DNA from: Verrucomicrobiia bacterium | GTDB lineage: Bacteria > Patescibacteriota > Saccharimonadia > Saccharimonadales > JAGQNK01 | Length of the DNA: 64,000 nt | Reading direction: 5' to 3' | Assembly: GCA_035489575.1 (NCBI GenBank) | Contig: DATHJY010000005.1 | Coordinates: 6,612 to 70,611, forward strand | In this document: piece after piece, positions 4,573-64,000 of the stretch | Position numbering within the stretch: position 1 is the stretch's first letter | Layout: each line of letters begins with the position of its first letter | Program-made: the position numbers and the translations under genes | The notes under the pieces: generated by a model | Database searches by the model: none | What the model saw: the letters and a program-made list of their open reading frames with translations, nothing else | Told to the model about the DNA's origin: nothing

Positions 4573-4967
4573 CGGAGCGCTTGCGCCCTCCCCCCGGACT
4601 TCTTGATCAAATCATTGTCATAGGTATAGAGCGGCGAAGCATTGTTGAGCTCTGCATAAAATAGACTGCAACAATCAACCCAGGATAGCCGAGACTCTGT
4701 CTCATACAGCTTGAGGGCTCGCTTGATAAGCGGGCGATTACAGTTTATTGCCCTTTCGGCTACGATTCTGCTCAGGTTTTTGGTAATCGCGACTCTTGGA
4801 AATTTAGCAGACTGCAGCACGTACACAATTTCGGCAAACACCATATCAGAGACATGCAGGGTTAGTGTGCTATCGAGCAACCGCTGGGTTGCTGCCGATC
4901 GAGCGCTGTCCCTATCGAGCAACCAATCAAGCAGTACGTTAGTGTCAAGACTTGCTGATGTCGCCAT
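4569..4967 (-). CDS. vapC: PIN-domain toxin (VapC-like)
   Basis: N-terminal LDTNVLLDWLL with the conserved Asp. 132 aa. Overlaps the upstream AbrB-type antitoxin. Confidence 0.75.
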   Translation of the reverse strand: MATSASLDTNVLLDWLLDRDSARSAATQRLLDSTLTLHVSDMVFAEIVYVLQSAKFPRVAITKNLSRIVAERAINCNRPLIKRALKLYETESRLSWVDCCSLFYAELNNASPLYTYDNDLIKKSGGRAQALR

Positions 4968-5226
4968 ATTTTTCTTTTACATGGGCAGCAAACCCGTCAC
5001 CAGCCTTGTAATTTTTCAGTATATCCGTGGTCCCAAGTTTTTTCAGAAGTGCTTGGTTCATAGACCGAACTTCTTCGATAGAGGGCATTGGCTCAAGTGT
5101 GATAGCTCCGGTTTTGGCATCTTCCTCAAAACGAACCTCACTGCCCGGCTTAAGCCCGAGCTTTTCGCGTATATCCGCAGGGATGGTAGTCGTGCCCTTG
5201 CTGGTAATTCTTGAGGTATAGATCAT
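4945..5226 (-). CDS. AbrB/SpoVT-fold antitoxin (VapB-like)
   Basis: RITSKGTTTIPADIREKLGLKPGSEV looped-hinge-helix pattern. 93 aa. Overlaps the PIN gene. Confidence 0.75.
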   Translation of the reverse strand: MIYTSRITSKGTTTIPADIREKLGLKPGSEVRFEEDAKTGAITLEPMPSIEEVRSMNQALLKKLGTTDILKNYKAGDGFAAHVKEKYGDISKS

Positions 5227-6711: not shown

Positions 6712-7782
6712 TTATTTTACCACCTCTGGCGGTTCTTCGGTAGGGGCTTCTGGTTCTTCTTGGGGCCTTTCGGGTTCATTGTTTTGGGTATGTTCTTTTT
6801 TGGCAGCCCGGGCAGCAACGGCTCGCATGTCGTCGTATCGGTCGAATTCATCAATAATAGGCTTGCCTATGGCCCGTTCCAGTATGTCCTCTATGGTGAT
6901 AATACCTACAAACTCTTCAAAACTATTTACCACAATGAATAAGTGCCGTTTGGTTTTTAGTACAGCCTGCAGGGCGTCAGTGAGCGGTTGTTCTTCGTGC
7001 ACATACATAACTTCTGCGTTCATATATTTTTCTATGTGTCCGCCGGACTTGGCCCGGATCAGGTCGCGCAAATACAAAATGCCAACAATGGTATCTTTTT
7101 TGTCAGCGTAGACCGGGAACCGCGAAAAACCACTGTCGTGGAGCTCGCTCATCAGCACCGTACCAACGGCTTCGGTGGCAGCTATCATTTTTACAGCCCG
7201 GCGCGGCACCATGGCCTGCACAACACTCACGTCACCGAATGTCAGAGCGTGCAGTGCAATCTCTAGCTCAGTTTTCTCGACCCGGTTGTCGGGCTGGGCT
7301 TGCTGATACTGCAACAGCTCTATGATGTCATTGCGATCATATAGTCCGGTATGAATAGTGACCGGCCAGTGACGCCCAAAAAAACCCGACAAGCCGTCGA
7401 TAACAGGATGCAGATAACTGAGCAACCAAGCCAGTGCCGGCGCAAGTTTGCTAGCTGTCCAGGCGCTCAGCTTGGTAACGTTGCGGGCTGGCAGCCAGAC
7501 AAATCCCGCCCAAATAACAAAAGCACTAACTATCACCGCAAACCAAGTTGGCGTACTGCGCGCTACCAGCACAAAGAACAATGCGTTGGTCACCCCGACA
7601 ATAATCCACAGCACCGTGGTCAAGCTATGCCCATATGCCACTGCTTTATAGAGTGTCTTGGCTAGTTCGTCGCCTTCGCGTGCCCGCTTGCGCAGCTCGC
7701 GCTCTGGGACATGCCGATAGACCTTGAGCAGGCTAATAGAAGAAAGCGCCAGCAAAGCGGACACTAAAAGCACGATCATCAT
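6712..7782 (-). CDS. DUF21 + tandem CBS domain membrane protein (CNNM/CorB-type putative divalent-cation transporter)
   Basis: About 4 N-terminal TM helices, then a CBS pair (e.g. HLFIVVNSFEEFVGIITIEDILERAIG). Acidic Pro/Glu tail. No CorC_HlyC domain seen. Confidence 0.8.
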   Translation of the reverse strand: MMIVLLVSALLALSSISLLKVYRHVPERELRKRAREGDELAKTLYKAVAYGHSLTTVLWIIVGVTNALFFVLVARSTPTWFAVIVSAFVIWAGFVWLPARNVTKLSAWTASKLAPALAWLLSYLHPVIDGLSGFFGRHWPVTIHTGLYDRNDIIELLQYQQAQPDNRVEKTELEIALHALTFGDVSVVQAMVPRRAVKMIAATEAVGTVLMSELHDSGFSRFPVYADKKDTIVGILYLRDLIRAKSGGHIEKYMNAEVMYVHEEQPLTDALQAVLKTKRHLFIVVNSFEEFVGIITIEDILERAIGKPIIDEFDRYDDMRAVAARAAKKEHTQNNEPERPQEEPEAPTEEPPEVVK

Positions 7783-7984
7783 GAACTCATTTTACATCTC
7801 AAGTCTGTTAAGCAAAGCCTATTCTGATAAGTACGATTTGTCAGTTCTTGTACGAAGGCGTACCCGTAGGTACGCCGACAAGCAAGACTGGCAAAGCGCA
7901 CACACCCCACAAAACAGATTTTGTGGGGACCTTGTTGTGCTATCAGAATGGCTTGAGGCTGGAGTGGAGATGTAAAATAAGTTC
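7783..7984 (-). ncRNA. candidate structured cis-regulatory 5' leader RNA, copy A
   Basis: Paralogue of 13619-13781. 18-bp closing helix 7783-7800/7967-7984. P2 at 7817-7826/7944-7952. UACG-tetraloop hairpin 7857-7876. Hairpin with conserved AACUGACA loop 7831-7854. Extra 10-bp hairpin 7905-7928. Compensatory changes and minus-strand-only G.U pairs. Confidence 0.6.
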
Positions 7985-8048
7985 GCGCTCAATAGTAACA
8001 GACATGGACCCCATGATAATATGTACATACCAATTAAGGGGATATTTC

Positions 8049-8708
8049 ATGAACAAACGCTTTATTGCTATTCTTGCCGCTTGTATCATTGCATTTGCCG
8101 GCTTGCTCATATTAACCAAAAAGGACAGCAAGACGCCTTCCGAGCAGACAGACAATAACCCAAGCTCCCAGCTGAGCAATCACATAAAAGGCCAAGGCAC
8201 CACAGGCGTGACGCTTACCGAATACGGTGACTTTGCCTGCCCAGCCTGCTACCAATACTTCCCAATCGTGCAACAGGTCAAAGAAAAATACGGTGACCAG
8301 ATCAAGTTCCAGTTCCGCCACTACCCACTGACCGAGATCCACCAGAACGCTCTGGTTAGCGCCCGGGCCGCCGAAGCAGCTGGCAAACAAAATAAGTTCT
8401 TTGAGATGCACGACCTGCTGTACCAAAACCAGCCGACCTGGCGCGACAGCAGCAATCCTACGCCACTGTTCGAGAATTATGCCAATCAGCTCGGCCTCGA
8501 TCTGAGTAAGTTCAAAGAGGACGTAAAAAACAGCGTCACCAATGCCACAGTCCAGGCCGACCGTGCCGAGGCAAGACGACTCAACTACTCTTCTACCCCT
8601 ACGTTTGAGGTAGATGGTAAGCAGGTCGAGAACCCACGTAGCCTCGAAGACTTTACAAAGCTGATAGACAACGCTATTAAAGAAAAACAGGCCCAGAAGC
8701 AACAGTAG
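8049..8708 (+). CDS. DsbA-family thiol:disulfide oxidoreductase (membrane-anchored or secreted)
   Basis: Start at ATG 8049 (MNKRFIAILAACIIAFAGLLIL signal/anchor), preceded by AAGGGG. Thioredoxin active site CPAC in GDFACPACYQYFP. Confidence 0.8.
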   Translation: MNKRFIAILAACIIAFAGLLILTKKDSKTPSEQTDNNPSSQLSNHIKGQGTTGVTLTEYGDFACPACYQYFPIVQQVKEKYGDQIKFQFRHYPLTEIHQNALVSARAAEAAGKQNKFFEMHDLLYQNQPTWRDSSNPTPLFENYANQLGLDLSKFKEDVKNSVTNATVQADRAEARRLNYSSTPTFEVDGKQVENPRSLEDFTKLIDNAIKEKQAQKQQ

Positions 8709-12195: not shown

Positions 12196-13626
12196 TTAGG
12201 CCGCAAGTGGCATAGGCTCGGGCTCGACTATCTTTGGTTTGATGAGTTCTATCGTTGCAGGCGCCTTGGGCTTGGGCCGGGTTGTCAGCTTGGTAGGATC
12301 CTGGCCTTTGTCGAATTTGGCCTGACACTTGCGACAGACGCTACAGGGCCCAACTTCGGTTTGGCCTGGGCGAGTTGCACAGCTCATCACGCGGCAAATG
12401 CCTGCCTTCCACCCCCAAAGTTCCTTGGTGTTTTTCAAGTTGTTTGCCATGCTGTCCAGACCCAAGCCCAGTTCGGCCTCTTCTTCGTCGCTCAGTGATG
12501 CTCCACATATCACTACTACTTCTTCATGCTGACGGGCATCACTGATAATTCGCTGCGCCCGATCAAAGTCCCCGGTCAAAACTGCGTCTGATGCCCGCTG
12601 ATAGTACGTGGCCGCCTTTTGCCCGAAACAGTCAGCGGCATATTCGGGCGCCATGGTACAAATGGCCCGCAAGGTGTGCAGGATTTTCTTGCCATACTGG
12701 CTATCGCGCTGGCGCTGTTCTATAAGGCCTTGGGCCACCAGTGCGTCCAACTTCTCTTCGTACGCAGCTATTCCGTCCAGGAGCTTCTCGGCCTGCTTTT
12801 CACGCGCCATAGATTCTTGGCGCACCTGGTCGTAGTTAACATGCAACGGGTTGGCACCAATAATTTCGCCGTAGCGAATGTTGGGGCCAGCGTGTTGGTC
12901 CAGTCGCTTTTGGATATCAACCACGCCGTTGGTGTAATCCTGGACGCTATATAAGAAAGGTGTTGCTAGCGCTGTGACGTCCGCTGTTTCCCGATGCATG
13001 GGCGTAATCCCCGCAGCCTTCAAGAATCCAAAAGTACTGCGCCAGGTACCATTACTGCGGCTCATCTGTTCGATGATCCGCGTATAAGTACCGTCTGGGT
13101 GAGCCACTAGGTGAGTCGAGCGCACCATGCCTTTTTTGTTATCTGGTCGGTAGCCCAAGTTGCGGGCACTTTTTTCCGGCATGTCCTCTGGGAAATCACT
13201 GGCCAGGGCTACTGCAGTCGATTCTGGCAGTTCGTCTGCAACAATAGCTTTTTGGACCGCCTGGATGGTCAGCTCTTCGCATATCTCCGGAAAACGACGT
13301 CGTTTTTCGGCCTCTGGCAGACGATCGCTCCAGCCTCGTAGCAACCGAGACAGTACTTGGGCATTGATCTCTTCGAATGTTCCATGGATTTCTATACGGG
13401 ACAGGTGACCGGATTTGGTCAGACCCTCCCACAGGGCTGTGCGGGCATTGTCACGACGCTCTTGCTGAGCTACCTCGACATCGTTCAGGGATTCGCGGTT
13501 AGCAATAAGACCCCAGGCCTGTGCCTCTATGGCATCACGATCCACGAACTCAGCAGCATCACAGATACCTGGATGCTCTGGCCCTCGTGGCCGTTCCCCC
13601 GAAAAATCCCCCTCCATTGAACTCAT
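12196..13626 (-). CDS. hypothetical cytoplasmic protein (476 aa) with a C-terminal Cys cluster; no family recognised
   Basis: Long ORF. C-terminal cluster is ICRVMSCATRPGQTEVGPCSVCRKCQ. Start taken as ATG 13626, with GAGGTG 4 nt upstream. An in-frame ATG at 13617 is also possible. The track start at 13692 would run through the leader RNA. Confidence 0.7.
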   Translation of the reverse strand: MSSMEGDFSGERPRGPEHPGICDAAEFVDRDAIEAQAWGLIANRESLNDVEVAQQERRDNARTALWEGLTKSGHLSRIEIHGTFEEINAQVLSRLLRGWSDRLPEAEKRRRFPEICEELTIQAVQKAIVADELPESTAVALASDFPEDMPEKSARNLGYRPDNKKGMVRSTHLVAHPDGTYTRIIEQMSRSNGTWRSTFGFLKAAGITPMHRETADVTALATPFLYSVQDYTNGVVDIQKRLDQHAGPNIRYGEIIGANPLHVNYDQVRQESMAREKQAEKLLDGIAAYEEKLDALVAQGLIEQRQRDSQYGKKILHTLRAICTMAPEYAADCFGQKAATYYQRASDAVLTGDFDRAQRIISDARQHEEVVVICGASLSDEEEAELGLGLDSMANNLKNTKELWGWKAGICRVMSCATRPGQTEVGPCSVCRKCQAKFDKGQDPTKLTTRPKPKAPATIELIKPKIVEPEPMPLAA

Positions 13627-13781
13627 TTCACACCTCACGTCTGTTAAGTGAAAGCCGTTCTGGCGAGTACAGTATGTCAGTTCTCGCGACAAAGCGTACC
13701 CGTAGGTACACTGCGAAGCGAAACTGCCATAGTGTGCCGTCAGAACGGCTTGAGGCTGGAGGGGAGATGTGAAATGAGTTC
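13619..13781 (-). ncRNA. candidate structured cis-regulatory 5' leader RNA, copy B
   Basis: Same fold as copy A. P1 at 13619-13636/13764-13781. P2 at 13654-13662/13741-13749. UACG hairpin 13693-13712. AACUGACA-loop hairpin 13663-13687. The P1 3' arm contains the SD-like GAGGUG and AUG 13626. Confidence 0.6.
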
Positions 13782-13791
13782 ATAAAAAACC

Positions 13792-14109
13792 CTACTTTTT
13801 TCTTTGGTCTCGAAAAGCAGGGTATGATGGTCCGTTTGTGACGCTCCTGCTCGAGAGACTTAATCTACCGTGTCTGGCTTGGCGCATTCCTTTGAGGAGA
13901 GGCACCTTACAGTTGCGGCACAGCTCAGGATTCTCACCTGATTCCGGCATATTTTCACACATCACGCACCAGCCAGCTTGCTCCTGAGCAGAGCCCAGGA
14001 CCCTGCTGTCTTCTTGGCACCCAGCACATTTTTTCTCTGCGATGCTCCCGCACCGTACTAAAGTACGGCTTGGTCCACTTCTCGAGAATAAAATGCACTG
14101 AGCACTCAA
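13792..14109 (-). CDS. questionable Cys-rich ORF (three CxxC pairs); no ATG start
   Basis: Cysteine pairs CAGC, CVMC and CRNC spaced like a double zinc ribbon. However, the ORF opens on TTG and ends 10 nt before leader copy B. Confidence 0.3.
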   Translation of the reverse strand: MSAQCILFSRSGPSRTLVRCGSIAEKKCAGCQEDSRVLGSAQEQAGWCVMCENMPESGENPELCRNCKVPLLKGMRQARHGRLSLSSRSVTNGPSYPAFRDQRKK

Positions 14110-34444: not shown

Positions 34445-34447
34445 TGC

Positions 34448-34603
34448 CCTACCCCAGATCTCCCTTTCGAGCCCAAAATTGATCCATTTTGGATGACAAT
34501 CCGTTCTGGCTTCTGTGGCGTAACCATAGTTACGGCTCAGAAGTTAGGGCGGATTGGCGCCGGAATGGGCGGTTTTGGGACGGAATTGGGGATCTGGGGT
34601 AGG
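34448..34603. repeat. long-range inverted repeat enclosing nested hairpins, between convergent genes
   Basis: CCTACCCCAGATC (34448-34460) pairs with GATCTGGGGTAGG (34591-34603). Inner hairpins are CCAAAAT..ATTTTGG and CGTAAC-CATA-GTTACG, the latter flanked by CTTCTG/CAGAAG. The 3' half is G-tract rich. Confidence 0.6.
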
Positions 34604-34617
34604 CTCTTAGATAAGTT

Positions 34618-36012
34618 CTAGTAGACCTGGACCTTAACGGTCACAGCGCTCTCGTCGATCCAGCCCACTCCCTCTTGGAGTACGCTAAATTCTTCGGTGT
34701 AGGTACCTGTCTCGAGCTTGTTACTGTCAAGGGTAAAAGCAAAACTAAAGTTCTGGCGCGGCCGTACATGATCAGCCAATTCATAGACTCCGCTCTTCTT
34801 TATGCGCAGGTCGTGAGCGGGCCGATTGTTATTGCTGCCCACCCAGGATTTATCCTGAAATTTTGACTCACGATCTTTGGGATCCGAAGTGCCCAGCACA
34901 ATTGGCTTGGTCTCGCTCAGGCGACTATACAAACTGCAGAGTGGGTAGGGTGTTCTGTTGGTAAAATCCAAAAATACTTCTTTGCTGGTGCCCTTTTTTA
35001 TACGGACCTTAACTTCCTTTTGGGCGGGTGTAATCTTGATACTGCCCAAAGGAGCCTTCTGGCTTTTTAGGAGTGCAGCAATCAGTGGATTCTTGCGCTT
35101 GTAGCCAAAGAGCGTCCGAATGTTTTGGGCGTACACGACGTTTAGGTGACTCTCGTGTTTTATGCGCGAAGCCTGCGCTTTTACCGACACATATGGCTGC
35201 AGGGGCTTATGAATAATCAGTATTGCCTGTGTTGCCAAGTGTCCGCCAACTTGGATCTTTGAGTAGTCGTTACCATACTGTGGACGCAGGCTGACGCGAG
35301 AGTCTTGCGCACGTGTGCCCAATGTAAATCGCAGCGGACTGACGCGGTAGCCTTTGCGCACCAGCCGGTTTTGCAGCCGTTGGATATCACGCAGCCGGAA
35401 AATCACAGTGCTGCCAGCGTCGACCGTCTTGGTGTTGGACAGCACGTTAATTTCAGTGGTGTGTACAGCCATGCCGCCTGGCTTTAGGCAGTCCAGGCTA
35501 TTTTCTATAAAATCCAACCCAGCGTCTATAGACCCCAGGTGACCCAACGCGCAGTTGGACCATACAAAATCATACTTGCCCGCCAGCTTCTTGGAAATCT
35601 TGGTCATGTCTATTGGCATGTAGCTAACCATTTCTTTAAACTTTTTGGGATCACAAATACCCAAACGATTGAGCGACTGAGCGCTCTCAGCCAGCTCGTG
35701 CTGCTTCCAGTGCTTGGCCTTGGCAGTGGTAAAATCTTGGTCGGTGGCCATCACCTGCACGCCGTAATGGGCAAACAGTGCCGGCAATCGCTCTTGGCCC
35801 ACGCCAAATCCAACGCCGCTCAAATCGCTTCTACTAAAGTCTAGGCGCTCCCACAGAGCTTGCACTAGCGCCGCGTTTTGCCAAAACTTGTTGGCACGCA
35901 GGGCGTGATTGTCCAGGTTGTGTTTGTCTTGTTTTAACTCTTTTGCCCACCGCTTGTACCAGTCGCTGTCAAAATCTTTTGTAACCAACGTGTGGCTTTT
36001 GATATGTATCAT
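34618..36012 (-). CDS. class I SAM-dependent methyltransferase with a C-terminal beta-sandwich domain related to the repeats of the neighbouring secreted protein
   Basis: Methyltransferase core VGFGVGQERLPALFAHYGVQVMATD. The C-terminus (RPRQNFSFAFTLD...GTYTEEFSVLQEGVGW) follows the same pattern as the 32696..34444 repeats. Confidence 0.7.
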   Translation of the reverse strand: MIHIKSHTLVTKDFDSDWYKRWAKELKQDKHNLDNHALRANKFWQNAALVQALWERLDFSRSDLSGVGFGVGQERLPALFAHYGVQVMATDQDFTTAKAKHWKQHELAESAQSLNRLGICDPKKFKEMVSYMPIDMTKISKKLAGKYDFVWSNCALGHLGSIDAGLDFIENSLDCLKPGGMAVHTTEINVLSNTKTVDAGSTVIFRLRDIQRLQNRLVRKGYRVSPLRFTLGTRAQDSRVSLRPQYGNDYSKIQVGGHLATQAILIIHKPLQPYVSVKAQASRIKHESHLNVVYAQNIRTLFGYKRKNPLIAALLKSQKAPLGSIKITPAQKEVKVRIKKGTSKEVFLDFTNRTPYPLCSLYSRLSETKPIVLGTSDPKDRESKFQDKSWVGSNNNRPAHDLRIKKSGVYELADHVRPRQNFSFAFTLDSNKLETGTYTEEFSVLQEGVGWIDESAVTVKVQVY

Positions 36013-36072: not shown

Positions 36073-36190
36073 TATAGCACTCCCAAAACAAAACCTGTCT
36101 TTTTCTGGTGATGGATCAGTGAGCCAAAAAGCTGCTTTTGGGCCGCTGAGGCCCGGCAGAAATGGCGAGTTTTGTTTTGGGAGTGCTATA
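36073..36190. repeat. perfect 22-bp inverted repeat with a 74-nt spacer
   Basis: TATAGCACTCCCAAAACAAAAC (36073-36094) and GTTTTGTTTTGGGAGTGCTATA (36169-36190). The spacer holds the CCAAAA..TTTTGG and GGGCC..GGCCC hairpins. Each arm carries an outward-facing TGCTATA extended -10-like box. Confidence 0.8.
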
Positions 36191-63644: not shown

Positions 63645-64000
63645 GCAGCGCTAGGAGCCGGCTTCAGAACAATGTGGCGGTCTCGCCCCTCGCCCTCTGA
63701 TTCTGTCTGTAGCCCCTCTTCTGAAGCCATCTTGTGTATAGTGCGACGGTCAGCAGCGTTCATGGGCTGCAGGTGCATCACCTCGCCCGTCTCCTTGACT
63801 TTCTTGACCCAGTCGGCAGCCTGGCCAACCAAACGGTCAGCTCGAGCCTTCTTGTAATCAGCAACGTCTATGTTAACCCGGGTTTTCTCAAAGTTCTTGC
63901 TGCGCAGGGCATTGCTGACAAGAAATTGCAGTGCCCGCATAGTCTCGCCGCGCTGGCCAATCAGGAAACCGTTCAGGTGCGTAGACGGCACATGTAGTTC
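63641..64000 (-). CDS. Jag/KhpB-type RNA-binding protein (KH + R3H domains); N-terminus beyond the window end
   Basis: KH GxxG IGQRGETMRALQ. R3H region MNAADRRTIHKMASEEGLQTESEGEGRDRHIV. The reading frame is open to position 64000. Confidence 0.75.
   Translation of the reverse strand, partial: ELHVPSTHLNGFLIGQRGETMRALQFLVSNALRSKNFEKTRVNIDVADYKKARADRLVGQAADWVKKVKETGEVMHLQPMNAADRRTIHKMASEEGLQTESEGEGRDRHIVLKPAPSAA

What the first reader, a model, noticed from the sequence alone, without database searches (positions are those of the whole stretch)
7783..7984. Unclassified two-copy structured 5' leader RNA (copy A) abutting the start codon of a CNNM/CorB-type transporter gene
The 202 nt between the DsbA-like gene and the ATG of the DUF21-CBS gene (6712..7782, minus strand) are a diverged paralogue of 13619-13781. 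That second copy lies in the same orientation, 0-1 nt from the start region of an unrelated gene.

Read on the minus strand, both copies fold the same way:
- **P1:** an 18-bp closing helix (A 7783-7800/7967-7984; B 13619-13636/13764-13781).
- **P2:** GCCRUUCUG/CAGAAYGGC (A 7817-7826/7944-7952; B 13654-13662/13741-13749).
- **Tetraloop hairpin:** an 8-bp stem capped by a UACG (UNCG-class) tetraloop (A 7857-7876; B 13693-13712).
- **Variable-stem hairpin:** the stem differs completely (GUAC/GUAC vs GCGAG/CUCGC), but the loop keeps AACUGACA (A 7831-7854; B 13663-13687).

Differences between the copies at paired positions are compensatory (P1 U-A to C-G; P2 A-U to G-C). All three non-Watson-Crick positions are C.A on the plus strand and G.U on the minus strand. 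This fixes the functional strand as the gene strand.

Copy A carries an extra perfect 10-bp hairpin (7905-7928) where copy B has nothing, which is how a variable peripheral stem behaves.

I compared the conserved unpaired blocks (CCAGCCUCAAGCC, AACUGACA, CUUAACAGAC) by eye with M-box, cobalamin, TPP, yybP-ykoY, NiCo, ydaO and glmS consensus features. They match none of them.
Basis: seen in the sequence. Interest (0 to 1): 0.8.

Follow-up and report, generated by a model that had tools for sequence, protein, structure and literature searches.

The report
Palindromic mobile repeat, not a riboswitch
The two look-alike "leader RNAs" are copies of a previously undescribed ~165-base palindromic repeat of Saccharibacteria that has been inserted exactly at gene boundaries. 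It is a selfish-DNA-type element that rides in mRNAs, not a dedicated sensor RNA.

Summary
The two copies are real: A at 7782-7985 and B at 13618-13782, both on the minus strand, about 78% identical, with no Rfam match. They are not a gene-specific leader RNA.

Each copy folds as one long rod hairpin, on either strand. Four more copies were found in other Saccharibacteria contigs. They sit next to unrelated genes (yidC-jag, a Mur ligase), and one lies between convergent genes with no downstream gene.

Close relatives have precise empty sites:
- The CorB orthologues at 78% and 66% identity have a -10-like box directly before the ATG, and no element.
- The 88% orthologue of gene B has the cobalamin riboswitch, a terminator and the ATG, and no element.
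- The source genome's own yidC-jag junction is empty.

About 74 kb of the source contig also holds two copies of a diverged sister family and a third palindromic repeat with a TA duplication.

Compensatory changes support the rod (31 of 61 pairs). However, G.U pairs do not outnumber C.A mismatches on the gene strand, and the opposite strand folds better.

Best reading: a MITE/ERIC-like non-autonomous repeat that lands at start or stop codons and supplies a Shine-Dalgarno-plus-AUG from its 3' arm. How it moves, and what its invariant asymmetric inner loop does, remain unknown.

The parts
7782..7985 (-). Family-1 palindromic repeat, copy A (204 nt including the outermost C/A position). It is inserted between a -10-like box and the CorB start codon.
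   Evidence: CM R1 hit of 154.9 bits. Rod fold of -90 kcal/mol, z = -10. Empty sites in L086 and L087.
7967..7984 (-). Copy A, 5' arm of the terminal inverted repeat / P1 helix (GAACUUAUUUUACAUCUC).
   Evidence: Pairs with 7783-7800. The P1-only hairpin is -24.1 kcal/mol.
7783..7800 (-). Copy A, 3' arm of P1. It carries a weak SD-like GAGA and an AUG at 7790-7788.
   Evidence: read directly from the sequence.
7779..7790 (-). Three-codon mini-ORF inside the 3' arm (AUG AGU UCA UGA). Its stop overlaps the two CorB AUGs at 7782-7780 and 7779-7777, forming an AUGA overlap.
   Evidence: Read directly from the sequence. The same arrangement occurs in L081.
7905..7928 (.). Perfect 10-bp hairpin inside a 39-nt insertion that is specific to copy A.
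   Evidence: No other copy of this insert was found in any fetched locus.
7992..8000 (-). TGnTACTAT extended -10-like box. It ends 7 nt before the element's first base, and is the likely promoter of the CorB transcript.
   Evidence: The same box lies 6-8 nt before the ATG in the empty-site orthologues L086 and L087. Many genes in the window show the same leaderless layout. Promoter function is inferred, not shown.
6712..7782 (-). CNNM/CorB-type CBS-domain transporter gene downstream of copy A.
   Evidence: Pfam CBS and CNNM; homologues.
8049..8708 (+). DsbA-like thioredoxin gene, divergent from CorB.
   Evidence: Pfam Thioredoxin_4 and DSBA.
13618..13782 (-). Family-1 palindromic repeat, copy B (165 nt). 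It is inserted between the riboswitch terminator's T-tract and the native ATG.
   Evidence: CM hit of 173.1 bits. Fold of -78.6 kcal/mol. Exact empty site in L091.
13624..13636 (-). SD-like GAGG (13636-13633) and element AUG (13626-13624) in the 3' arm of P1. The AUG is in frame with the native AUG at 13617-13615.
   Evidence: Read directly from the sequence. Public gene calls start at the element AUG (P0121, 476 aa), whereas the empty-site orthologue starts at the native AUG (P0122, 471 aa).
13870..13945 (-). Cobalamin riboswitch aptamer (partial Rfam match) upstream of copy B.
   Evidence: RF00174, 33.6 bits against a gathering score of 31.5. The full-length match is in L091.
13784..13822 (-). 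Terminator-like hairpin (CCCUGCUUUU ... AAAAGUAGGG) followed by U6: the riboswitch expression platform, lying just 5' of the element.
   Evidence: Read directly from the sequence and conserved in L091. Not flagged by the scan because the loop is longer than 8 nt. Inferred.
12196..13617 (-). Conserved Saccharimonadia protein with no Pfam domain, downstream of the riboswitch and copy B.
34445..34618 (.). Diverged sister-family (family 2) palindromic repeat. It fills the whole gap between two convergent stop codons.
   Evidence: CM hits of 39.2 bits (minus) and 37.3 bits (plus). Rod fold of -74.9 kcal/mol, z = -7.1. Empty sites in L092 (8-nt gap) and L093 (3-nt gap). 77% identical to the copy at L085 7844-7993.
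36073..36190 (.). Third palindromic repeat (family 3, about 118 nt), with a 21-bp perfect terminal inverted repeat and an apparent TA duplication.
   Evidence: CM hit of 27.2 bits. Fold of -54.6 kcal/mol, z = -8.9. Absent at the same spot in L092.

Best explanation
The finding is two copies of a previously undescribed family of roughly 165-bp, full-length palindromic, non-coding interspersed repeats of Saccharimonadia (Candidatus Saccharibacteria, Patescibacteria). The family is MITE/ERIC/RPE-like.

**Shown**
- The element is dispersed among unrelated loci and genomes.
- It is present or absent at orthologous sites.
- It sits exactly at gene boundaries: directly 5' of a start codon, directly 3' of a stop codon, or filling the few bases between convergent stop codons.
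- It has 18-21-bp terminal inverted repeats, and its complementarity is maintained by compensatory change along its whole length.
- Its 3' arm carries an SD-like GAGG/GGAG followed 6-7 nt later by an AUG. That AUG is either in frame with the native start codon or ends in an AUGA stop-start overlap with it.

**Inferred**
- It is (or was) mobilised in trans by an unidentified enzyme. That enzyme would recognise the invariant, slightly asymmetric sub-terminal segment (CTCCAGCCTCAAGCC on one side, GGCTTTCGCTTAACAGA on the other).
- It is co-transcribed with its neighbours and folds into a long mRNA hairpin.
- Only insertions that keep the downstream gene translatable survive. This would explain the start-codon register and possibly the uniform gene-sense orientation, which is the orientation that gives the weaker mRNA hairpin.
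- Side effects on expression are likely but untested. P1 occludes the SD and AUG. A ribosome terminating at the upstream stop codon could open P1. RNase III could cleave it, as it does Correia elements.
For: **Family and dispersal**
- There are six family-1 copies: A and B in the window, L081 and L082 in two Saccharibacteria MAGs, and L083 and L084 in two metagenome contigs.
- Pairwise identity is 60-78%. The covariance model scores them at 147-173 bits.

**Unrelated contexts**
- CorB; a riboswitch-controlled unknown protein; yidC|jag (Pfam confirmed); alpha/beta-hydrolase|Mur ligase; a methyltransferase-like gene|unknown.
- L082 lies between an ORF end and the convergent valS stop codon, so it has no downstream gene.

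**Empty sites**
- CorB site. L086 (78% aa) has TACTATTGATTCAT|ATG and L087 (66%) has TACTATTTATGC|ATG. The window has TACTATTGAGCGC[202 nt]ATG.
- Gene-B site. L091 (88% aa) keeps the riboswitch and terminator as GGGTTTTTAGT|ATGGAGGGGG. The window has GGGTTTTTTAT[164 nt]ATGGAGGGGG.
- yidC-jag site. The source genome has AGGAGGTGA TTC GTG. L083 has TAG[165 nt]ATG.
- Family-2 site. L092 and L093 have 8 and 3 nt between the convergent stop codons. The window has 171 nt.

**Repeat-rich setting**
- A second family-2 copy lies just outside the window. It is read through as a 74-aa tail of an ABC ATPase whose domains end at residue 304.
- A third palindromic repeat shows a TA duplication relative to L092.
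- That makes five palindromic repeats in about 74 kb of the source contig.

**DNA-level palindrome**
- The element folds as one rod on both strands.
- 31 of 61 pairs have changes on both sides, against 12.6 in shuffles and 3-9 in the slid controls.
- G.U versus C.A is 15 versus 20 on the gene strand, and the antisense strand is more stable in 6 of 6 copies.

**No autonomous partner nearby**
- No recognisable transposase domain was found in the window's large ORFs or in the precomputed Pfam lists of the flanking loci. This is as expected for a non-autonomous element.

**Fit to the published description**
- Length, inverted repeats, intergenic location and stable transcript hairpins match the description of prokaryotic MITEs. 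That description also states that flanking direct repeats fade with age (PMC10969869).
Against: - **No target-site duplication.** None is consistent at the three family-1 sites that have empty-site relatives. Site A shows 0 nt. Site B shows at most an ambiguous AT.
- **No partner element.** No autonomous element with matching ends was found.
- **Few copies.** Only six family-1 copies were recovered from 596 Gb of genomes plus the metagenome set using exact-motif scans. Copy number per genome is therefore unknown.
- **Old copies.** Copies within one genome (A versus B, 78%) are hardly closer than copies between genomes (60-74%). These are old insertions or slowly evolving elements, not a recent burst.
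- **Uniform orientation.** All six orientation-informative copies are gene-sense (binomial p = 0.016 one-sided). A randomly inserting DNA transposon does not predict this.
- **Pattern of conservation.** The most conserved part is an asymmetric inner segment rather than the termini. Together with whole-length covariation, this is also what a selected RNA or single-stranded DNA structure would show.
- **Direction of change.** Deletion of palindromes, rather than insertion, cannot be formally excluded as the cause of the empty sites. That would require precise loss in several lineages.
Confidence: 0.7

Rival explanations
1. One reading: a new cis-regulatory leader RNA, riboswitch-like or metal/ligand-sensing. 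Its P1 helix would sequester the ribosome-binding site of the downstream gene and open or close on ligand binding.
For: - It lies in the 5' untranslated region at sites A and B and abuts the start codon.
- P1 contains an SD-like motif and an AUG.
- Internal sequence blocks are invariant while the helices covary.
- There is no Rfam match.
Against: - The downstream genes are functionally unrelated.
- Two copies, one family-1 (L082) and one of the sister family (window 34445-34618), lie between convergent genes with nothing to regulate.
- The element is absent from the same loci in relatives at 66-88% protein identity, where expression signals sit directly at the ATG.
- Copy B follows a complete cobalamin riboswitch with its own terminator.
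- It is a single rod with no junction or pocket.
- The opposite strand folds better, and G.U does not exceed C.A.
Confidence: 0.05
2. A domesticated, or at least selected, RNA module with a general post-transcriptional job that has spread by mobility. Candidate jobs are:
- an intercistronic translational-coupling device (a terminating ribosome melts the 5' arm and frees the SD and AUG in the 3' arm);
- an RNase III processing site;
- a 3'-end protective hairpin.

The invariant inner loop would bind a host protein.
For: - Six of six informative copies are gene-sense.
- The 5' arm starts 0-24 nt after an upstream stop codon in L081, L083 and L084, and the upstream reading frame runs a few codons into the element in L082.
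- The element AUG is in frame with the native start, or forms an AUGA overlap with it, in A, B, L081, L083 and L084. The N-terminus of P0002 (..IEMGSM) suggests the same there.
- The position homologous to the AUG is not an AUG in L082, the copy without a downstream gene.
- The asymmetric loop is invariant across at least five genomes while the helices drift with compensation.
- Correia elements are known RNase III substrates, and ERIC elements alter transcript levels (PMC10969869).
Against: - There is no strand signal for RNA pairing on the gene strand.
- Close relatives do well without the element at the same junctions.
- Because P1 is an inverted repeat, the SD-AUG would be present at the 3' end in either orientation, so it cannot explain the orientation.
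- The sample is small (n = 6).
- This reading is compatible with, and not exclusive of, the selfish-repeat explanation.
Confidence: 0.15
3. A strand-specific mobile element that moves through a single-stranded DNA (HUH/IS200-IS605/REP-RAYT-like) or RNA intermediate. The whole-length hairpin and its asymmetric bulge would be the substrate recognised by the enzyme. Orientation would be tied to replication or transcription direction.
For: - There is no target-site duplication.
- Whole-length hairpin complementarity is maintained.
- The sub-terminal asymmetry is conserved.
- Orientation is uniform. In the source contig and in L083 it coincides with the leading-strand direction away from dnaA.
- One strand folds consistently better, in 6 of 6 copies.
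- Flanks and empty sites often resemble an element end, which hints at recognition by pairing or microhomology. Examples: TGAACCC after L081; RTTC at the empty sites of L086, L089 and L092.
Against: - No HUH or other transposase gene was seen in about 74 kb of the source contig.
- IS200/IS605-type elements have distinct sub-terminal hairpins at each end, not an 18-21-bp terminal inverted repeat spanning both ends.
- No conserved tetra- or pentanucleotide lies 5' of the insertion points.
- The better-folding strand is not the lagging-strand template in the window (inference from GC skew).
Confidence: 0.1

Closest known systems
ERIC / IRU (enterobacterial repetitive intergenic consensus, about 127 bp) and related RU elements
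   Same: - Imperfect full-length palindromes of 100-170 bp.
- Confined to transcribed intergenic regions and co-transcribed as stable hairpins.
- Present or absent between related genomes.
- Can change the fate of the mRNA they sit in (PMC10969869; remaining points from my own knowledge).
   Different: - No sequence similarity, and a different phylum.
- The element here sits at 0-1 nt from start codons and supplies an in-frame AUG.
- It has an invariant asymmetric inner segment with drifting, covarying arms.
- All informative copies are gene-sense. By my recollection ERIC occurs in both orientations (not checked here).
Correia elements (CREE/NEMIS) of Neisseria
   Same: - About 100-155 bp with 26-bp inverted repeats.
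- Inserted close to genes and co-transcribed.
- The inverted repeats pair in the mRNA and are cut by RNase III (PMC10969869).
- They can supply expression signals to the neighbouring gene (my own knowledge).
   Different: - Correia elements duplicate TA and carry an IHF site and promoter elements (my own knowledge).
- In family 1 here no TA duplication is visible, and the donated signal is a ribosome-binding site plus AUG, not a promoter.
Rickettsia palindromic elements (RPE)
   Same: - About 150-bp palindromic repeats in a reduced genome.
- They tolerate, or favour, in-frame insertion into reading frames (PMC10969869).
- Here, one family-2 copy is read through as a 74-aa C-terminal tail, and family-1 copies add 3 to about 20 N-terminal residues.
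   Different: - RPEs sit inside coding regions and encode a conserved peptide.
- These elements sit at gene boundaries, and no conserved peptide is evident.
Riboswitches and other cis-regulatory leader RNAs
   Same: - Located in the 5' untranslated region at two sites.
- A closing helix contains the SD and AUG.
- Internal bases are conserved and the helices covary.
   Different: - No gene-class association.
- Absent at orthologous loci.
- Copies exist without any downstream gene.
- Rod rather than junction.
- No strand-specific pairing signal.
- One copy lies downstream of a genuine riboswitch.

Membership tests
Prokaryotic MITE (as described in PMC10969869) | Total length under 500 bp and no transposase gene inside. 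| tested here: met
   The copies are 163-204 nt, too short to encode a transposase.
Prokaryotic MITE | Terminal inverted repeats of about 4-30 bp. | tested here: met
   Arms are 18-21 bp in all six copies. Helix 1 is 91.3% paired. P1-only hairpins range from -18 to -41 kcal/mol.
Prokaryotic MITE | Several dispersed copies at unrelated loci, with presence/absence at orthologous sites. | tested here: met
   Six family-1 copies in at least five genomes. There are four independent filled-versus-empty comparisons.
Prokaryotic MITE | Flanking direct repeats (target-site duplication), at least in young copies. | tested here: inconclusive
   - Site A: none.
- Site B: at most an ambiguous AT.
- Family-2 site: an ambiguous TA or CTA.
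- Family 3 (36073-36190): shows a TA duplication.
- The review notes that these repeats fade with age, and the copies here are old (60-78% identity).
Prokaryotic MITE | A related autonomous insertion sequence with the same ends that can mobilise it in trans. | not tested
   No transposase domain was found in the window or the flanking loci.
Prokaryotic MITE | Insertion in either orientation. | tested here: not met
   Six of six informative copies are gene-sense. The sample is small, so this lowers confidence in strict membership but does not exclude it.
Riboswitch / dedicated cis-regulatory leader | Consistent association with a functional class of downstream genes. | tested here: not met
   The neighbours are CorB, an unknown protein, Jag/KhpB, a Mur ligase and an unknown gene. 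L082 has no downstream gene, and the sister-family copy at 34445-34618 has none either.
Riboswitch / dedicated cis-regulatory leader | Conservation at orthologous loci in related genomes. | tested here: not met
   The element is absent from the CorB locus at 78% and 66% identity and from the gene-B locus at 88%. It is probably present at the CorB locus of an 84% relative, judged from the protein's N-terminus and a 258-nt spacer only.
Riboswitch / dedicated cis-regulatory leader | Strand-specific RNA pairing: G.U tolerated, C.A avoided, and a better fold on the transcribed strand. | tested here: not met
   G.U is 15 against C.A 20. The antisense strand is more stable in 6 of 6 copies, with 35 G.U pairs against 16.
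Any Rfam 15 family | A covariance-model score at or above the gathering threshold. | tested here: not met
   There is no hit for either copy, even at E up to 10.
IS200/IS605-derived or REP/RAYT-type single-strand elements | Distinct sub-terminal hairpins, a conserved target tetra/pentanucleotide 5' of the left end, and an associated HUH transposase. | tested here: not met
   The ends form one long inverted repeat. The left-flank bases are not conserved. No HUH gene was seen nearby. A genome-wide search for the enzyme was not possible.

The most novel reading that the evidence does not exclude
The element is not merely selfish DNA. It would be a mobile, strand-specific structured nucleic-acid module under purifying selection.
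- Its invariant asymmetric inner loop (CUCCAGCCUC opposite UCGCUUAACAGA) would be a functional core, such as a protein-binding or catalytic site.
- It would insert by a duplication-free, end-homology-guided mechanism precisely at start and stop codons.
- It would convert leaderless genes into SD-led, structure-gated genes in the streamlined genomes of Saccharibacteria.
Probability: 0.15. Interest if true: 0.75.

Novelty: new member of a known kind. Interest (0 to 1): 0.4.

Why it matters
- **A false lead removed.** It takes a plausible-looking "new riboswitch" out of the candidate list and shows why two-copy covariation in a palindrome is not evidence for a functional RNA strand.
- **Repeats in reduced genomes.** Saccharibacteria and other Patescibacteria have very small, gene-dense genomes in which interspersed repeats have hardly been described. 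My two literature searches found nothing.
- **Effect on gene starts.** A repeat family that lands exactly on start codons, many of them belonging to leaderless genes, and brings its own ribosome-binding site and AUG would change how those genes are expressed. It already changes how they are annotated: public gene calls start inside the element, as in P0121 and P0002.
- **Practical use.** These repeats coincide with at least one assembly break (the Logan contig L085 begins inside copy A), and they could serve as strain markers.

Tried and rejected
- **Rfam.** Searched at gathering threshold on the whole window and at E up to 10 on both copies. The elements gave nothing; the only real hit is the neighbouring cobalamin riboswitch.
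- **Plasmid collection.** blastn found no match.
- **Viral contigs.**
  - The 15-mer gave 79 hits, none with the rest of the element.
  - The gapped two-block pattern gave none.
- **L080** (Verrucomicrobiota MAG). It is a chance 21-mer match inside GC-rich sequence and gave no covariance-model hit.
It was tested against the rod on six sequences, and the extra hairpin is not supported.
- **Promoter inside the element.**
  - The scan gave one hit, TTGAGA-16-GATGAT. It would start transcription downstream of the CorB AUG, so I rejected it.
  - The -35-like TTAACA in the invariant block has no -10 partner (by eye).
- **Target-site duplications.** I looked for TA, AT and longer duplications at all eight copies and found nothing consistent for family 1.
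- **Target motif.** I looked for an IS91-type GTTC target and an IS200-type conserved 5' tetranucleotide. Neither is supported by the empty sites.
- **Transposase in the window.** None was recognisable by Pfam.
- **DNA of the 84% relative.** DNA for the P0002 and P0123 contigs (both from JGI sample 3300078620; P0002 is the 84% CorB orthologue) was not retrievable.
- **Literature.** Searches for MITEs in Saccharibacteria and Patescibacteria returned nothing relevant.
Full report
**1. What is in the sequence**

Read on the minus strand, 7783-7984 (copy A, 202 nt) and 13619-13781 (copy B, 163 nt) are clearly homologous.
- Alignment identity is 78%. BLAST gives E = 2.8e-17 and 2.1e-12 for the two blocks on either side of a 39-nt insertion in A.
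- Both begin with GAACUYAUUUYACAUCUC and end with its reverse complement.
- Both abut a start codon.
  - In A, the last A of the element is the A of the first CorB ATG (7782-7780).
  - In B, the element ends at 13618 and the native ATG is at 13617-13615.
- The extra 10-bp hairpin of A (7905-7928) is real.
- Rfam 15 has no match for either copy, even at E up to 10. The only genuine hit nearby is a cobalamin riboswitch aptamer at 13870-13945, immediately upstream of copy B.
- The DsbA-like gene is on the plus strand (8049-8708). Copy A therefore fills 202 of the 266 nt of a divergent intergenic region.

**2. Structure**

- Each copy folds into one long, imperfect rod hairpin: -90 and -78.6 kcal/mol, z about -10.
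- The complementary strand folds at least as well: -94.3 and -88.9 kcal/mol.
- The element is therefore a full-length palindrome, not a multi-branched RNA.

**3. Relatives**

One exact-motif scan of 185,579 species genomes and one of the JGI metagenome contigs gave four further copies.
- L081 and L082 are both labelled Candidatus Saccharibacteria MAGs.
- L083 and L084 come from metagenome contigs.
- A fifth hit, L080, is a chance match.
- The six sequences are 60-78% identical to each other.

*Test of the rod model on their alignment (A4)*
- RNAalifold returns the rod.
- 31 of 61 pairs carry changes on both sides, against 12.6 ± 2.4 in column shuffles and 3-9 in the slid controls.
- 89.9% of cells are paired.

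- The 'variable hairpin with an AACUGACA loop' is only 56.7% paired across the family.
- Those bases pair instead with the 5' half of the element (helix 5: 85.9% paired, 10 of 13 pairs compensatory).
- The UNCG tetraloop is not conserved.

*Invariant segments*
- Two segments are invariant in all six copies: CTCCAGCCTCAAGCC and (GG)CTTTCGCTTAACAGA.
- They face each other as an imperfect inverted repeat, with a 5-nt bulge and a 3x2 loop.

**4. Strand**

That does not hold for the whole structure or for the family.
- Alignment-based counts are 15 G.U against 20 C.A cells. A few of A's C.A cells come from alignment register.
- An alignment-free check shows the antisense strand is more stable in 6 of 6 copies, by 4-31 kcal/mol, with 35 G.U pairs against 16.
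- Complementarity therefore seems to be kept at the DNA level, or on both strands, rather than for the mRNA strand.

**5. Context**

The neighbours are unrelated.

| Copy | Location |
|---|---|
| A | upstream of CorB |
| B | between the riboswitch terminator and a conserved 471-476-aa protein with no Pfam domain |
| L083 | exactly between the yidC stop codon (TAG) and the jag ATG (Pfam confirmed) |
| L084 | between an alpha/beta-hydrolase stop codon and a Mur-ligase start codon |
| L081 | after a methyltransferase-like gene |
| L082 | between an ORF end and the convergent valS stop codon, so there is no downstream gene |

*More copies found with covariance model R1*
- A diverged copy at window 34445-34618 fills the gap between two convergent stop codons.
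- A 77%-identical sister of that copy lies just beyond the window start (L085 7845-8008). It is read through as a 74-aa tail of an ABC ATPase whose domains end at residue 304.
- With filters off, the model also picks up a third palindromic repeat at 36073-36190. It has a perfect 21-bp inverted repeat.
- That is five palindromic repeats in about 74 kb of one contig.

**6. Empty sites (the decisive evidence)**

| Site | Relatives without the element | Sequence with the element |
|---|---|---|
| CorB | L086 (78% aa): TGGTACTATTGATTCAT-ATG; L087 and L088 (66%): TGTTACTATTTATGC-ATG | window: TGTTACTATTGAGCGC-[element]-ATG |
| Gene B | L091 (88%): ...AAAAAAGCAGGGTTTTTAGT-ATGGAGGGGG | window: ...AAAAAAGTAGGGTTTTTTAT-[164 nt]-ATGGAGGGGG |
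| yidC-jag | source genome (L089): AGGAGGTGA-TTC-GTG | L083: 165 nt between the stop and start codons |
| Family 2 | L092 (77%): convergent stop codons 8 nt apart; L093 (67%): 3 nt apart | window: 171 nt |
| Family 3 | L092: GCTATATACTTT | window: GCCTATA[TAGCAC...GTGCTA]TACTTT |

- At the CorB site, the relatives have an extended -10-like box 6-8 nt before the ATG. That is a leaderless layout, common in this window.
- At the gene-B site, L091 retains the cobalamin riboswitch (full-length RF00174 hit) and the terminator-like hairpin.
- The family-3 comparison indicates a TA duplication.
- An 84% CorB orthologue (P0002) probably has the element. Its called N-terminus ends ..KEGIEMGSM-IVLLV, which matches the GAGAUGGGUUCA-AUG type of 3' arm, and its spacer is 258 nt. 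Its DNA could not be fetched.

These comparisons show that the elements are insertions (or, less parsimoniously, precise deletions) and not conserved parts of the leaders.

**7. Features that are unusual for a plain MITE**

1. **No consistent target-site duplication in family 1.**
   - Flanks or empty sites often resemble an element end.
   - TGAACCC follows L081's right end and equals its own left end.
   - CGAACCCGAA follows L082.
   - A 21-nt tandem duplication of the left end occurs in L085.
   - RTTC lies right at the insertion point in the empty sites of L086, L089 and L092.
2. **The 3' arm carries an SD-like motif and an AUG 6-7 nt downstream.**
   - This matches the spacing of native SDs in the window.
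   - The AUG is in frame with the native start in B, L083 and L084 (and by inference in P0002).
   - In A and L081 it opens a 3-codon ORF whose UGA overlaps the native AUG.
   - L082, which has no downstream gene, has no AUG at the homologous position.
   - Public gene calls already start at the element AUG (P0121, 476 aa, against P0122, 471 aa).
3. **All six orientation-informative copies are gene-sense** (one-sided binomial p = 0.016).
   - Because P1 is an inverted repeat, the SD-AUG would be present in either orientation and cannot be the reason.
   - One possible reason is that the gene-sense orientation is the one giving the weaker mRNA hairpin.
4. **The inner asymmetric segment is more conserved than the termini.**

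**8. Most likely explanation**

A non-autonomous, MITE/ERIC/RPE-like palindromic repeat family of Saccharimonadia (confidence about 0.7).
- *Shown:* dispersal, insertion polymorphism, inverted repeats, whole-length compensated palindromy, location at gene boundaries, and the start-codon register.
- *Inferred:*
  - trans-mobilisation by an unknown enzyme that reads the invariant sub-terminal segment;
  - co-transcription;
  - survival only of insertions that keep the neighbour translatable;
  - side effects on translation and mRNA processing (P1 of -18 to -41 kcal/mol hides the SD and AUG).
- These effects have precedents. RNase III cuts Correia inverted repeats, and ERIC elements alter transcript levels (PMC10969869).
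- The published description of prokaryotic MITEs fits: under 500 bp, inverted repeats of 4-30 bp, intergenic location, stable transcript hairpins, and direct repeats that fade with age.
- RPEs provide the precedent for in-frame read-through.

**9. Rivals**

- A ligand-sensing leader is now very unlikely (0.05).
- A selected RNA module (coupling device, processing site or protected 3' end) remains possible on top of mobility (0.15).
- A single-strand or otherwise strand-specific mobile element would explain the missing duplication, the uniform orientation and the strand asymmetry. It lacks the expected end architecture, target motif and enzyme (0.1).

**10. Limits**

- Only six family-1 copies were recovered, because the exact-motif scans of the large collections are capped and require invariant blocks. 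Divergent copies, such as the one inferred upstream of P0002, would be missed.
- No transcript data are available.
- No partner transposase was found, and none is recognisable by Pfam in the window's large ORFs or in the precomputed Pfam lists of the flanking loci.
- Literature searches found no description of such repeats in Saccharibacteria or Patescibacteria.

**11. Verdict**

- It is a new family of a known kind of element, with some intriguing and unexplained properties.
- Interest is 0.4.

Noticed in passing
window 13870-14010 (-) and 12196-13617 (-); L091 9811-11416: A cobalamin riboswitch with a terminator-type expression platform controls a 471-476-aa protein with no Pfam domain. The protein is conserved across Saccharimonadia (95 homologues, 34-88% identity). 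It is a candidate B12-related function (uptake or binding?) in organisms that cannot make B12.
   Followed up: partly
window 36073-36190: A third palindromic repeat of about 118 nt, with a perfect 21-bp inverted repeat (ATAGCACTCCCAAAACAAAAC). It is absent at the same spot in the 77% relative L092, with an apparent TA duplication, which makes it a classical MITE. Its ends resemble those of the L084 copy of family 1 (AGCACCC...).
   Followed up: partly
window 34445-34618; L085 7845-8008 (just outside the window start): A sister family (family 2) of the repeat. One copy fills the gap between convergent stop codons. The other is translated as a 74-aa C-terminal tail of an ABC ATPase and is preceded by a 21-nt tandem duplication (GATGCCAAGAACCTAYCCAAG).
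   Followed up: partly
whole window (for example 1881, 23634, 25929, 46065, 62547 start regions): Many genes have a TAnnnT box 6-8 nt before the ATG and no Shine-Dalgarno sequence, which suggests leaderless mRNAs. Genes inside operons have GGAG 6-9 nt upstream.
   Followed up: partly
window 63665-64000 and L089 11095-14751: The window ends inside jag. The rnpA-yidC-jag and dnaA-dnaN genes follow within about 3 kb, so the window lies next to the replication origin. The uniformly negative plus-strand GC skew fits this.
   Followed up: partly
P0121 / P0216 source names: NCBI labels the source MAG proteins (locus tags VK694_*) 'Verrucomicrobiae bacterium'. All close homologues and the gene content are Saccharimonadia/Patescibacteria, so the taxonomic label is probably wrong.
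   Followed up: no
L085 position 1 (equivalent to window 7834): A Logan assembly contig of the same organism begins inside copy A. This fits the repeat breaking short-read assemblies.
   Followed up: no
L082 35-37: The reading frame upstream of the L082 copy looks like the C-terminus of a HAD hydrolase (judged by eye) but has an in-frame TAA. It may be a pseudogene or an assembly error. The last four codons and the stop codon of this frame lie inside the element.
   Followed up: no
window about 4945-5226 and 2607-3264 of L085; L089 6637-7288: Several toxin-antitoxin-type modules (MazE-PIN, FitA-like-PIN, Fic) occur in a very small genome, according to the precomputed Pfam lists.
   Followed up: no
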